A stretch of DNA of 64,000 bases, from positions 32,178,001 through 32,242,000 of the forward strand of contig OZ004607.1 in assembly GCA_963924565.1 (NCBI GenBank), written 5' to 3'. The notes under the pieces are model-generated. The model saw nothing but the letters and a program-made list of their open reading frames with translations. It was not told the origin of the DNA and did no database searches. Positions within the stretch are counted from its first letter, which is position 1. The number at the start of each line of letters is the position of its first letter. Below, in pieces: positions 11,001 through 16,382 of this stretch. The translations under genes and the position numbers were made by a program. The DNA is from Ascidiella aspersa (taxonomy: Eukaryota).

Positions 11001-14000
11001 CTAAAGTTCGGTAAATGTTTATTGTTTTTCGATTTCCATTCCAATTGAAAGCAATTTTCTCTTGAAAAAAAAAATCTGTTCAAAAGTACCCAAGTCATAT
11101 GCGAGAGGTGTTCAACCTCAAGCATAATAACTTCGCTTTTGTGCTGTACCACCAGCAAGCAGTGCAGCCAAAAATAACAAACAACATTATAGGACATAAC
11201 GTTGCAGGTTGCCATCACCAAAAAAATACAGTCAAGATAATGGGAACACATTTATTAGAAAAAATAACAATAAACTTGCAATGACCAGGTCTACAGCCTG
11301 CGGCAGAAAATACGAACCAAACGGGAACGGACAGTATCCCGGTTCTGAAGTGGTCAGCGGCGACCGGGCAACACCTGGCCCATCCGGCCCATGGCCTACC
11401 GGCGCCGGAATGCCCAGACAGCAGCCCGCTCTCCCCTACTGTCCAAATGGTGCCAACATGGTGCACCCGGCGCCGCAGTTGGCCATGATCCAGTACCACC
11501 ATCACCACCACCACCACCCGGCGTCATGGTTCCACGCGGACGCCTACTCACGGCGCCAGGCAGGCCTGCACTTCGACAACCTCGTGTCCAACCTGGGCGA
11601 TCCCGTGCCGGATACGAAACATCTCGCGACCAGCCTGGTCCCTGTCGTTCCGGAAAAATCAGAATTGAAAAAGTCCACTCGGCGTGAGTTGACAGTTTGT
11701 ATTAGCATTGTAATGTGTAATAAGAAAAATACCTTTGGTATTGAATTGCAAAGCCAAAAAGGTCGAGTAGATCGACATCATCGTGGTTAACGACTGAATA
11801 TGTGCATAGTGAAACCTCTACAATACCCTTTTGGCTTTGCAATTCAAAACCAAAGTTTCACTATTCGCACTTTTAATCGTTAATCAACATGATGTCGATC
11901 TATTCGACCTTTTCGGCTTTGCAGTTGAATACCAATGTAAAATTATTTTGATATATAACTCCCCTGTTGTGCTAGTTTGATTTGGAATGGTATATGCATC
12001 GATTTCTGGCGTTTCTAGTTGCACCTCACCCCTAAAATAAATTCTGTAATAAACAGGATAAATAAAAACCTATAGCGGGCCACTTTGTAAAACCTTTTCT
12101 TCTACTGTTAAACAACTAGGTTTTTAATAACATTTCGACGAGGTTATGTGCATCGTAACCAGTGTTCCCTCTAAGGTTGGCAACTGCGCAATTGCGCAGT
12201 CACACCAGACAAACTGCGCAGTAAAATTTGCTTTTGCGCACTTACATCATCCTCAAATTAAAAATCAAATATCTTCAGTTTTGCCAAAACTGTTTGAGCT
12301 TTTCGCATTGCCCTTTTTAAGTTGATGTTTGTAGCTAAAAGCAAGTAAACAAATCAAATCCGTATTGACGATTGTGACGTAATAAATTACTTTGTCTAAA
12401 TCGGTTTTCATCATTAAATGTTTACTCAGGAAAACCAAGCTTACAGAAAAAATGAGTTTAGAAAAGTGCAGAACGCAGCAGTGGAGTGTTTCACCATAAT
12501 TCGGAATCATAAATCCGAAATGCATTTTTTAGGACAAATTTTTTTAACACAATTGCAGTTTTTACACTATTTCCATACAGATACAGCTGTGGGGTCAATA
12601 ATGGCCCTCACAAATTGACAAAATCATCTTATTAAATGCAAATGAGCGAATAGTTGGAGATTCTTGATTGTGCGCTAAAGGCATCACGCATCCGATTTTT
12701 GAAAATTAGACATTTTGTCAATTGAACCCAAATATTCGTATATTTTTTCACGCAACTGCTTTGTTACCATATTCTTGAACATATTTAACTTGATTGTAGT
12801 TGCACATACAAGATTATTGTGAATATTTGTTTCATGACATCACGCTTTGTGGCGTCAACTTTAAAATTTTCACGCCTCGCCCTAATACAAAAAAACGTTT
12901 ATCTAGCGCGGGCCCTGCCAGCGCAGCCTTAAAATATTTTTGCGCAGTACAAAAAATATTTGCGCAGTAGAAAATTTTCTTACAGGGAACACTGATCGTA
13001 ACAGCCCAAGTGGTCAAACTTCCCTATTTATAGAAACCGTCCAGTTTACAAGGCAGGATCTTTTTTTAACACAACGGTTAAAAAAGAACACGACTCGATT
13101 TGGGAGTCGGTTAGTTTTAAGAAGCCATGTAGACTGTCCAATGTTCATTGTAAAAAAAGGCATAAACGCACAAGAATCGAAGCCTGAGCTGTGACTGTAA
13201 AATCTCTGCATTTACTCTGCGTCAAATACAATTGGTTCAACTAGCAGTTTCTTACGTGGAAAAGTTCAACCAGTTCTGTGTATTATACATCACCCATATA
13301 GGCGTCGCAAACAAACAAATCTAAAAGCCAAGCGCCAGCACTGTTCGCCTTGCTCATTTTACCGCCTTTTTATGACAGGAAATGGAAGCAGCAGTAGCAG
13401 CTCCTGCCGTAAACGCTACTCTGAGAGAAAGGGCCAAGACGAAAAGAAGTTCAAGTGCACCTACGGCAACCAGGATTCGGTCTGCAACAAACGCTTCGCC
13501 AAAGAACAGGAGCTGCAGGTTCACATCAACAAGCAGCATCTCAGTAAGGACGCTTTGTCTTTTCAAATTCCTTAACCAAAGTAGGTGACTGGAAAAGTAG
13601 GCCACTGGATCTTACAAAAGTGTCAAAAGTCTACCTGAAAAGGTAGTATGTAGACCAGAGGTGGGCAGCCTATATGGCCCGCGGGCCTGAACCAGCTAAT
13701 TAATTATCCTGCCCGACCTGTCTTACAAACTGGGCACAAGGCCATTTCTCATATATTTTGATTATTTCACCAGGTTAAAGCATTTTTCAAACTTGGCGCA
13801 TGTAGTTAGATCCCTTTTTAATTGCAAAATACCCCTAGTTTTACCCTGATTAACAGTCGTCGCGGTTGGTATAATTAGATGCGTAAAGTCTACAAGATTT
13901 ACCGGCCCGCAAAGACCTTTCTGAGTTTGATTTTGTTGCTTTTAATACATAACCGCTCGCCACTGCACAAAATGCCTTTCTGCCTTAAAATATAATTGGT

Positions 14001-16382
14001 TTAAAAGTAAGTAGGCTATAAGTAAAAATTAAAGGCACGGCATAATGTTCTGGAATGTTTATCGTGTAGTGTCACAAGTACTGAATTACTTCCAGAAAAT
14101 CACAAAAAAAATACCAGAAAATAGCAAAAATAACTATTTCAGAGAATGAAGCCCAATTCCAGTTTCGGATGTAGACTATATTATGACGTGAAAATTATTG
14201 TTAAAAAATATCAAGTAACCATCAAAATTAGTAGAGGAGGCCGCCACTAAACTCGCTTTGGTTAGCTGATTCAAAATTGCATTTCAGCGTTGTACAATCG
14301 AAAATTACGTCATACTTAAAAGTCATACAGTCGGAATTTTACATCGTGAATGAGTAGTGGGCCTGTTTTATCTATAAAGCTGTTTGATGTTCATAACTTA
14401 CTGACTGAGCACATTGCTGGAGTATAAGCATTTCGGGAGTGTCAAAGTCAAGCACTGTAACCGTCTAGTTTATTCTAACACGATAAATAACGAATAATCT
14501 TCCCCTCCTAACTGGAATATATAGCATTGATGAAACACTTCGTTTTTATTTTTGTTCATCTTAGAGAAACTCACACCCAGACCCTTAACCAGTTACATAA
14601 AACTATATGGGATATATAGTATACGGAAATTCATCCGATCATAGCTTTTACGTTGTGTACAAGAGCTAGTTATAGGAGATCTATAGCAACTTTTCCATTC
14701 AAATTAACATGATCCGTGCGACCCTCTACTTGCGCAAATCTCAAACACCTTTGAAAACTAATCGATTCGATCCGATACTGAAGTCAAATGCCTTCATCGC
14801 ATTTATGGCATATAGCTGCCGGGTCAGCGTCAAAACCTATATATCGCCTACGTTGTCGATTCTTCGCCAGAAATCGTGAAGCCCTACTTCTGCGACGCCG
14901 AGTCCTGTGGCAAAAGCTTCAAGCGGCCCGATCAGCTGAAACGTCACCAGAAGATCCACACCGGCGAGAAACCGCACAAGTGCGACTTGTGCGGGCGGCG
15001 TTTCGCCAGGACCGACCACTGCAAGACACACAAGAGCAAGCACAGCGGTGAGTAAAGAACGGTTAACATCGGCACTTGCCTACCTAGTTTTTTTGTCGGG
15101 GAGCTGCTCAGTGAATCTATATAGAACCTTTTACTATTTCTAAAAAAATTGCCGATTTTCGTCCTTATTTCTTGTTGTTAAGGAAACACTGTCTTTTGCA
15201 GACCTGAGAAAAGTACGGCCCATCTGGACCACGATTTATTTTTCTTAAAACACCTTTTTCGGTATTTTATGCGCTAATTTGACAACATATCTGCAAGTGT
15301 AAAAACAAGCGCATATTTTTATATGTTTGGTTGTAACATGTATACACCATGCTTTCTAGGGTCAGTAATGGCCCCGCCAGACCGTATTTTATTCCTTATT
15401 TAAATACCAAAAGAGAAATCGCCCGAATCTCAAAAAATATATTCCGTCTTCAGTGCATTTTAGCGAACCTTTAAGGTATTTTTGTGCAACCTTACAGCTG
15501 TTGGGTCAACGGCACCTAAAACTCCAGTTTGTTTTCCGATGCATGGCCGCTTAAAACTCGTTTAAACCAAACCACTAAAACTGCCAGAATTGGTGAGTGA
15601 TAGCGACCCCAAAAAGGTTTAAGCGACCCGACATTGGTTGTAGACCACTGACCTGTAGCATACTCTTCTCATAACCGCAACACAACATTAATATAAACCC
15701 AATGCGTTTGTTCGATCCTGAGTTGTGTAACCCAGTGCTCTTCAACCTTTTTGGTTTGGTGAACGCTGTGGCGAACTCATCCACCCTGTTTACTTGAAAG
15801 ATAAAATGGGTAAAAAGTGATATGAAAAATCATTATGCCTATCAATATAATCATGTCAATTAAACCGAGCTGAGCTACCAAAGGTACACACTGTCGGTGA
15901 GAGTTCGACTATGGATTGCGAGTAGGCCTACTATTACATGTCTTAAAACAGCATTCAAACAAACTTGAGAAAATAGCAAAGAGACTATTTAATGACTGTT
16001 TTGAAATTAAAAATGTCAAATATTAAAAGTTTGTGATGCACCCTTGTATACCTTTCCGTACTTGTGATCCCCATTCATATTTCGGTGCACCCTAGGGGAG
16101 CTGCACCGTGCACACCGGTTGAAAACCACTGGTCTAATCAAGAACTCGTGTTTTCCATCAGGTGAAAAGCCGTTCGTGTGTCGGCAAGTTGGCTGCAACC
16201 GAAAGTTCGCTAGGAACGACGAACTGCGTCGGCACGAGGCCAGCAAGCACATGCAGCATCATCACCAACAACAGCAGCAACAACAACAACAACAGCATCT
16301 AAGCAACAGCGATCTCATTGAGGCCGAGCAGAGGCGAGAAATGTACAAAGGATTTTTCTACATTTGGATATTAACATACTGA
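4449..16382 (+). CDS. WT1: WT1-like four-finger C2H2 zinc-finger transcription factor, ~882 aa, 7 coding exons
   Basis: Phase-consistent GT-AG exons 4449-5892, 8958-9088 (alternative in-frame donor after 9070), 10059-10174, 11289-11683, 13379-13543, 14871-15047, 16162-16382. Fingers: [111 protein letters not shown], DHxKTH and the CX4C...FARxDELxRH fourth finger match WT1 fingers 2-4 better than EGR or KLF. The N-terminus is low complexity (polyQ, polyH). The symbol reflects similarity, not proven orthology. Confidence 0.8.
4992..5033 (+). repeat. Uninterrupted (CAG)14 coding microsatellite (polyQ)
   Basis: 14 consecutive CAG codons in frame in exon 1 of the WT1-like gene. Confidence 0.95.
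11730..11939. mobile_element. Foldback/palindromic MITE-like element
   Basis: ~80-bp imperfect inverted arms (11735-11815 vs 11855-11935), with an extra copy of the terminal motif in the centre. Confidence 0.75.
12160..12994. mobile_element. Non-autonomous hAT element, 835 bp
   Basis: TIRs cagtgttccctctaag / cttacagggaacactg; perfect 8-bp TSD atcgtaac; subterminal tgcgca repeats. Confidence 0.92.
13656..13935. mobile_element. Truncated hAT MITE related to 21170-21687
   Basis: Left end cagaggtgggcagcct...ggcccgcgggcc; shares agacctttctgagtttg with the other copies; right TIR missing. Confidence 0.55.
15733..16131. mobile_element. hAT-type MITE
   Basis: TIRs cagtgctcttcaacc / ggttgaaaaccactg; degenerate TSD gtgtaacc/gtctaatc (6/8). 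Confidence 0.75.

What the first reader, a model, noticed from the sequence alone, without database searches (positions are those of the whole stretch)
13379..16253. Invertebrate WT1-like finger array with a WT1-position intron but no KTS alternative donor
Seen: four fingers with WT1-type helices ([25 protein letters not shown]) and a phase-1 intron in the Gly of the finger 3-4 linker (15047|16162). The intron starts GTGAGTAAA-GAAC, so there is no GT after +9; downstream GTs (4 and 14 nt on) are out of frame. Fingers 2 and 3 share one exon, finger 1 is divergent (CX8C, HX4H), finger 3 has Cys for the core Leu, and the ~720-aa N-terminus shows no WT1 similarity I can see. Known: vertebrate WT1 has one exon per finger and two donors 9 nt apart at this intron (+/-KTS). 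Inference: a -KTS-only orthologue that could help date the origin of KTS splicing.
Basis: partly seen in the sequence, partly recalled or inferred. Interest (0 to 1): 0.7.

Follow-up and report, generated by a model that had tools for sequence, protein, structure and literature searches.

The report
Sea-squirt WT1 lacking the KTS switch

Summary
A five-exon gene (797 aa in my model) has four C2H2 fingers. All 12 base-contacting positions of fingers 2-4 equal vertebrate WT1, and the Cys spacing is WT1's, not EGR's. The finger 3-4 intron has no GT at +9. The nearest named relatives are unannotated Ciona and Clavelina proteins, so the host is probably a tunicate. WT1 orthology is likely, not proven. 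Trees favour it weakly (63-79% bootstrap) and do not reject EGR or KLF. Three of six vertebrate WT1 neighbours lie on the same contig. No WT1 N-terminal domain is detectable. The intron position is weak evidence, since 4 of 4 KLF/EGR genes checked share it. A second tunicate-type locus also lacks the +9 donor. A hagfish WT1 model reads through as GKPSAY, like fish GKTSAY, which suggests the second donor predates jawed vertebrates. That brackets KTS to the vertebrate stem only if the tunicate state is ancestral. Finger 4 is degraded or missing in other tunicates, so loss remains possible. Amphioxus was not tested, and RNA depth was too low to list the junction.

The parts
4449..5892 (+). Exon 1 (inferred): 481 aa low-complexity N-terminus with a poly-Gln run; no Pfam match
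   Evidence: Open frame and GT donor. The Met-Trp start and a short motif near 5571-5618 are shared with relatives P0085/P0086/P0093. 0 Pfam families at E<=0.5.
11297..11683 (+). Exon 2 (inferred; 5' boundary uncertain), His-rich
   Evidence: Shares an SWFxA(D/E)AxxR motif with Ciona P0029 (tblastn E 1e-4). Phase-1 junctions fit. About 1x RNA depth in one bin.
13379..13543 (+). Exon 3: basic stretch and finger 1 (CX8C, helix KEQELQV, HX4H)
   Evidence: Its best per-finger score is to WT1 finger 1 (13/25 identical).
14871..15047 (+). Exon 4: fingers 2 and 3 (RPDQLKR, RTDHCKT)
   Evidence: 76% identical to Ciona and 72% to Clavelina. The two exon variants displayed for DNA contigs (14962, 14987) are synonymous (248 further rows not shown).
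15048..15056 (+). First 9 nt of intron 4, the place of the vertebrate KTS insert: single donor GTGAGT, in-frame TAA at 15053-15055, no second GT
   Evidence: Sequence directly; donor scan.
15048..16161 (+). Intron 4 (phase 1, linker Gly), with multi-copy repeat sequence in its 3' part
   Evidence: High-depth bins at 15554-16174.
16162..16382 (+). Exon 5 coding part: finger 4 (CX4[10 protein letters not shown]4H), Gln/His run, stop at 16380-16382
   Evidence: RNA depth 2.9-4.5 on the expected strand from the bin starting at 16160, and 0 in 16108-16159.

Best explanation
This is likely the tunicate orthologue of WT1: a four-finger protein predicted to bind WT1-type GCG-TGG-GAG sites with fingers 2-4, whose finger 3-4 intron has one in-frame donor followed by a stop codon, so only the short (-KTS-like) linker is predicted to be made. 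Finger 1 is divergent and would add affinity rather than specificity, as reported for WT1. The low-complexity N-terminus would be the regulatory region and has diverged beyond recognition. Shown: finger sequences, donor sequence, in-frame stop, tunicate relatives. Inferred: exon joins, orthology, DNA target, and that the absence of KTS is ancestral.
For: Positions -1, 2, 3 and 6 of fingers 2-4 are 12 of 12 identical to WT1 and 11 of 12 to this genome's EGR; the difference is the WT1-defining Gln369 versus Glu (PMC5137435 passages). Cys spacing is 4(8)/4/2/4 as in WT1, against 4/2/2 in EGR. Fingers 1, 2 and 4 each score best against the same-numbered WT1 finger. Finger 2-4 identity is 38-41/73 to WT1 and 33/71 to EGR. 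All three trees put tunicates with WT1 (63/60, 77/81, 79/82). One EGR and five KLF-type genes exist separately on other contigs, and only this locus has RxDQLKRH. The in-frame stop blocks longer donors. Locus L016 also lacks GT at +9. Sparse RNA reads lie on the expected strand and start at the 16162 acceptor.
Against: No tree branch is strongly supported, the tunicate stem is long (1.15-2.7 changes per column), and AU tests keep EGR and KLF open, with only one EGR in the set. Finger 3 scores better against WT1 finger 2 and EGR finger 3 than against WT1 finger 3. There is no WT1 N-terminal domain: PF02165 best E 1.85, elsewhere in the genome; hhalign probability 0.2%. Reciprocal searches were not clean: fish finger 2 ranked a KLF first (35.0 vs 34.7 bits), and a four-finger WT1 query returned a KLF and poly-finger genes. 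Pax6 (C9), DNAJC24 (C7) and CSTF3 (C8) are on other contigs. The finger 2-3 intron present in fish wt1 (L015) is absent. L016 has a weak in-frame GT at +15, and the window has a weak in-frame acceptor at 16096.
Confidence: 0.75

Rival explanations
1. A tunicate-specific offshoot of EGR or KLF that gained a finger and a finger-2 Gln, while true WT1 was lost. It would bind WT1-like sites but say nothing about KTS.
For: AU tests do not reject either grouping. Finger 3 resembles EGR finger 3 (78 vs 73 BLOSUM for WT1 finger 3), and this genome's EGR also has Cys at helix position 4. KLFs keep their last two fingers in one exon and have the same HTG intron. No WT1 N-terminal domain.
Against: It needs convergence of DQLKRHQ, a CX4C finger 4 and a finger 1 that best matches WT1 finger 1. 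The best tree in 3 of 3 runs and the linkage to ELP4, EIF3M and IMMP1L favour WT1.
Confidence: 0.15
2. A true WT1 orthologue, but the chordate ancestor already had a tandem donor and tunicates lost it as finger 4 came under relaxed selection. The gene then does not date the origin of KTS. This overlaps the best explanation on identity and differs on history.
For: Finger 4 has lost its RxDE helix in Ciona and is absent from the Clavelina model and from three unnamed clusters. The long stem shows fast change. The finger 2-3 intron is also missing.
Against: The two loci that keep a WT1-like finger 4 (window and L016) both lack the +9 donor. A single donor at this linker is the usual state in KLF and EGR genes.
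Confidence: 0.2
3. The gene makes a second isoform that disengages finger 4 by another route: intron retention, which would end the protein at G-E-stop after finger 3, or the acceptor at 16096, which would add 22 residues. Either would work like +KTS.
For: Both are open in the sequence. Three-finger forms are the recorded product in other tunicate-type proteins. +KTS is thought to act by unseating finger 4 (PMC5137435 passage).
Against: RNA depth is 0 in 15068-15691 and in 16108-16159 against about 3 in exon 5, though on very few reads. Stops early in introns are common by chance, and the 16096 acceptor has a poor pyrimidine tract within repeat sequence.
Confidence: 0.08

Closest known systems
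Vertebrate WT1 (Wilms tumour 1), -KTS isoform
   Same: Four C-terminal C2H2 fingers; identical base-contact residues in fingers 2-4, including Gln369; Cys spacing; phase-1 introns in the finger 1-2 and finger 3-4 linkers; GEKP linker.
   Different: No second donor (83 of 120 vertebrate records carry KTS or KKS); no PF02165 domain; fingers 2 and 3 in one exon; finger 1 CX8C/HX4H with a different helix; Cys (Arg in relatives) at the core Leu of finger 3; 797 aa versus about 420.
Unannotated tunicate proteins (Ciona intestinalis XP_078491122.1; Clavelina lepadiformis CAK8677023.1)
   Same: 72-76% identical over fingers 2-3; same finger-1 signature; shared exon-2 motif with Ciona.
   Different: Ciona finger 4 has lost RxDE and the Clavelina model has no finger 4, while the window keeps a WT1-like finger 4.
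EGR/Krox (Zif268)
   Same: RxD-type helices; 11 of 12 contact residues; a non-Leu at helix position 4 in one finger.
   Different: EGR has three fingers, Glu instead of Gln in its first finger and CX2C in its last; a separate EGR gene lies on contig C2.
KLF/SP
   Same: Finger-2 Asp; HTG|EKP phase-1 intron; last two fingers in one exon.
   Different: KLF/SP have three fingers with KSSHLKA/RSDEL/RSDHL helices; five such genes lie elsewhere in this genome.
Amphioxus Wilms' tumour gene (Shimeld 2008; seen only as a title and citation in PMC4558859) and Drosophila Klumpfuss (recalled)
   Same: Invertebrate genes assigned to the WT1 class, so an invertebrate WT1 is not new in itself.
   Different: Sequences and splice sites could not be obtained, so they were not compared.

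Membership tests
WT1 | Four tandem C2H2 fingers with Cys spacing 4/4/2/4 | tested here: met
   8/4/2/4 in the window; finger 1 is CX4C in 5 of 5 relatives that have it.
WT1 | Helices RxDQxxR / RxDHxxT / RxDExxR, including Gln369 | tested here: met
   12 of 12 contact positions; residue roles from PMC5137435 passages.
WT1 | Finger 1 helix KLSHLQM | tested here: inconclusive
   The window has KEQELQV and Ciona KEHELQI; K, L and Q are shared, and the best score is to WT1 finger 1.
WT1 | Clade with WT1 in a finger phylogeny | tested here: inconclusive
   Best tree in 3 of 3 runs, 63-79% bootstrap; alternatives not rejected.
WT1 (vertebrate form) | N-terminal PF02165 domain | tested here: not met
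   The N-terminal profile search listed 150 of 175 hits. The 13 with two or more fingers all looked vertebrate, and the 4 looked up were hagfish, lamprey, walleye and opossum. The domain may be vertebrate-only.
WT1 (vertebrate form) | Two donors 9 nt apart in the finger 3-4 linker | tested here: not met
   No GT at +9 and an in-frame stop; also absent in L016.
WT1 (vertebrate form) | One exon per finger | tested here: not met
   Fingers 2 and 3 share an exon; fish locus L015 has introns after fingers 1 and 2.
WT1 | Linkage to the EIF3M-RCN1-PAX6-ELP4-IMMP1L-DNAJC24 block | tested here: inconclusive
   3 of 6 located genes on the same contig (ELP4, EIF3M, IMMP1L-like); Pax6, DNAJC24 and CSTF3 elsewhere; CAPRIN1 not found; none adjacent.
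WT1 | Expression and function in mesothelium, gonad, excretory tissue | not testable with these tools
   Only a few reads from about 6% of one RNA run.
EGR | Three fingers, 4/2/2 spacing, RxDEL first helix | tested here: not met
   a separate EGR gene is at L019.
KLF/SP | Three fingers with KSSHLKA, RSDEL, RSDHL | tested here: not met
Klumpfuss | Grouping with arthropod Klu fingers | not tested
   No Klu sequence came up in any call.

The most novel reading that the evidence does not exclude
Tunicates carry an overlooked WT1 orthologue that never had the KTS switch, while hagfish already has the second donor (KPS). The tandem donor was therefore a vertebrate-stem invention that predates jaws. 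Tunicate lineages instead fixed one state genetically: finger 4 engaged (this species, L016), degraded (Ciona) or deleted (others), the last mimicking what +KTS does by splicing.
Probability: 0.45. Interest if true: 0.6.

Novelty: new variant of a known kind. Interest (0 to 1): 0.45.

Why it matters
The +KTS/-KTS ratio of WT1 matters for vertebrate sex determination (PMC12617523 passages) and for Frasier syndrome (recalled). I found no paper in the held library on when the switch arose or on a tunicate WT1 (searches; most subscription journals, including Shimeld 2008, are not held). A WT1 orthologue in the vertebrates' sister group, with a Ciona copy that can be studied directly, would make two questions testable: when KTS splicing arose, and whether WT1's mesothelial, epicardial and gonadal role predates kidneys. 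It is an extension of a known family, not a new kind of system.

Tried and rejected
RNA junction test: one raw RNA run, about 6% read, about 1-4x on exons; no splice joint reached the three-read listing threshold in two lays, so the junction is not shown. No indexed RNA holder was listed. Whole-protein ranking was swamped by poly-finger proteins and is no use as a reciprocal best-hit test. The atlas feature search gave generic C2H2 clusters only. Invertebrate WT1 and Klumpfuss sequences were not retrieved: one search listed only the best 120 of 538 hits, all vertebrate; one search used the N-terminus; the metagenome pattern gave 3 loci (1 fish, 2 tunicate-type, L014 overlapping L016 in sequence). 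CAPRIN1 was not found. Shimeld 2008 and PMC23712 were not held. One supplement file of PMC4558859 could not be searched, its figure S1 on WT1-like sequences was not seen, and the two files searched had no WT1 mention; these may bear on novelty. 'wt1' in PMC6836712 and PMC5408385 meant wild-type specimens. The intron position was rejected as strong orthology evidence. GC donors at -3, -12 and -27 are in frame but would cut into finger 3 and were not pursued. Three look-ups of earlier findings returned nothing. No structure was predicted.
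Full report
Gene anatomy. The finding covers the last three exons of a larger plus-strand gene. My model has exons 4449-5892, 11297-11683, 13379-13543, 14871-15047 and 16162-16382. All four introns are GT-AG and phase 1, giving an open frame of 797 aa with the first Cys of finger 1 at residue 637. Exons 1 and 2 are tied to the gene by short motifs shared with relatives; the exon 2 acceptor is uncertain. 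The N-terminus is about 635 aa in this model, not about 720.

The KTS site. Intron 4 begins GTGAGTAAAGAAC. There is no GT at +9, and the GTs at +4 and +14 are out of frame. Read in frame, the intron gives Gly-Glu-stop, so the in-frame GTs at +39 and +63, and any other downstream donor, would truncate the protein after finger 3. A KTS-type extension is therefore impossible without changing the DNA. One upstream in-frame acceptor (16096) is open but weak. RNA evidence is thin. About 6% of one run gave reads on four exons, all in the orientation expected for a plus-strand transcript: depth about 3 from the bin starting at 16160, 0 just upstream, and 0.92 in the bin holding the donor. No joint reached the listing threshold.

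Relatives and host. The only close hits among 38 were Ciona intestinalis (76%), Clavelina lepadiformis (72%) and three unnamed proteins (66-69%); the named ones are annotated as uncharacterised. The host is thus probably a tunicate. A metagenome pattern scan gave three loci. L016, with L014 overlapping it in sequence, has the same layout as the window: fingers 2-3 in one exon, a phase-1 intron at the linker Gly without a GT at +9 (one weak in-frame GT at +15), and a finger 4 with RGDELRK. L015 is a fish wt1 with separate finger exons. Finger 4 is unstable in this family: WT1-like in the window and L016, without RxDE in Ciona, and absent from the Clavelina model and three unnamed clusters. The Clavelina absence may be a modelling error. 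Finger 3 has Arg at the core Leu position in 6 of 6 relatives, so the window's Cys is probably derived from Arg. Egr1 has Arg at this position in its third finger (sequence printed), so such a finger can fold.

Is it WT1? For: all 12 contact positions of fingers 2-4 match WT1, including Gln369, which separates WT1 from EGR1 in binding assays (PMC5137435 passages). Cys spacing matches WT1. Fingers 1, 2 and 4 score best against the same WT1 fingers. EGR and five KLF-type genes exist separately, and no other locus has RxDQLKRH. Trees on 98 columns placed tunicates with WT1 in 3 of 3 runs (63/60, 77/81, 79/82). These trees used 6 of 53 distinct vertebrate finger sets, plus hagfish; finger 1's loop and HX4H spacers were trimmed, the hagfish finger 4 was misregistered by one residue at its start, the first finger of two KLFs was left out, and four three-finger tunicate rows were dropped. 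AU tests did not reject EGR (p 0.28, 0.25, 0.14) or KLF (0.13, 0.19, 0.14), and only one EGR was available. Against: finger 3 scores better to other fingers, no PF02165 similarity is detectable, and reciprocal searches were ties or swamped. The intron position is shared by 4 of 4 KLF/EGR genes checked and carries little weight.

Synteny. The jawed-vertebrate block Eif3m, Rcn1, WT1, Pax6, Elp4, Immp1l, Dnajc24 is listed in PMC3554528 (passages); CSTF3 and CAPRIN1 as 11p13 genes are recalled. The window lies at C1:32.18 Mb. ELP4 is at C1:30.4 Mb, EIF3M at C1:27.2 Mb and an IMMP1L-like gene at C1:10.9 Mb (paralogue assigned from recalled motifs). Pax6 is on C9 (assigned from recalled residues), DNAJC24 on C7 and CSTF3 on C8; CAPRIN1 was not found. 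Three of six on a contig holding 13% of the genome gives p 0.034: modest, independent support. PMC6925180 (passages) notes that sea lamprey Wt1 lies over 7 Mb from Pax6-beta, so tight linkage is not expected.

Dating KTS. Of 120 listed vertebrate WT1 records, 83 carry KTS or KKS, 35 lack it and 2 are other. A hagfish (Eptatretus burgeri) cluster holds a -KTS model and a model that runs from finger 3 into the intron as G-K-P-S-A-Y. A sea-bream model that does the same reads G-K-T-S-A-Y. This suggests the second donor is conserved in hagfish. It is inferred from protein, since I saw no hagfish DNA or +KPS transcript. If so, and if the single tunicate donor is ancestral, the switch arose between the tunicate split and the cyclostome-gnathostome split. 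Amphioxus, the needed outgroup, could not be examined. Given the long tunicate branch and the erosion of finger 4, loss stays possible.

Mechanism. Most likely the protein is a sequence-specific transcription factor. Fingers 2-4 would read 5'-GCG-(T/G)(G/A)G-G(A/C)G-3' as -KTS WT1 does (consensus from PMC5137435), finger 1 would add affinity, and the low-complexity N-terminus would recruit cofactors. No splice-controlled low-affinity isoform is expected. The binding site, N-terminal role and tissue are inferred and untested.

Literature seen: passages of PMC4558859, PMC5137435, PMC3554528, PMC6925180, PMC12617523, PMC8306835, PMC7328003, PMC5315740, PMC3701560, PMC6836712, PMC5408385 and PMC8661034; search listings for the rest. 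Shimeld 2008, on an amphioxus Wilms' tumour gene, was seen only as a citation. Ten searches found no tunicate WT1 or account of the origin of KTS, within a library that lacks most subscription journals.

Verdict. A real gene, probably the tunicate WT1 orthologue (0.75), lacking the KTS donor by direct sequence evidence. It is a new variant of a known family and a useful but conditional marker for the origin of KTS. Interest 0.45.

Noticed in passing
P0237/P0362 (hagfish WT1 models); P0107 (sea bream): The hagfish intron read-through after finger 3 is GKPSAY against fish GKTSAY, suggesting a conserved second donor (KPS) in a jawless vertebrate.
   Followed up: partly
P0029, P0031, P0032, P0034, P0093: Finger 4 is degraded in Ciona and missing in four other tunicate-type proteins; finger 3 has Arg at the core Leu position in all of them.
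   Followed up: partly
window about 32800-41700 (+): Ankyrin-repeat and DHHC exons, a ZDHHC13/17-like palmitoyltransferase gene; human ZDHHC13 is on the same chromosome arm as WT1 (recalled).
   Followed up: partly
window 18623-19501 (+): A 293-codon open frame with a CMI2B-like ciliary microtubule inner protein motif (PF10629).
   Followed up: no
window 54209-54859, 58016-60607, 63196-63867 (-): Long low-complexity open frames with no Pfam match, probably exons of one or more large genes.
   Followed up: no
G000:C1 about 0.6-2.8 Mb and 5.3 Mb: A dense cluster of dozens of poly-C2H2 finger open frames.
   Followed up: no
L019 (G000:C2:13.358 Mb): The genome's EGR has Cys at helix position 4 of its last finger (RSDECKR), the same unusual residue as the window's finger 3.
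   Followed up: no
window 11621-13069, 13691-14104, 15554-16174, 16382-17002: Multi-copy repeat elements inside the introns and downstream, with very high contig depth.
   Followed up: no
window 21824-22490 (+): Broken open frames that look like a hAT-type transposase remnant (resemblance recalled; Pfam gave only a weak unrelated hit).
   Followed up: no
G000:C6, C7 (two), C1, C9: Five paired-box genes: Pax1/9-like, two Pax2/5/8-like, Pax3/7-like and Pax6-like (names from recalled residues).
   Followed up: partly
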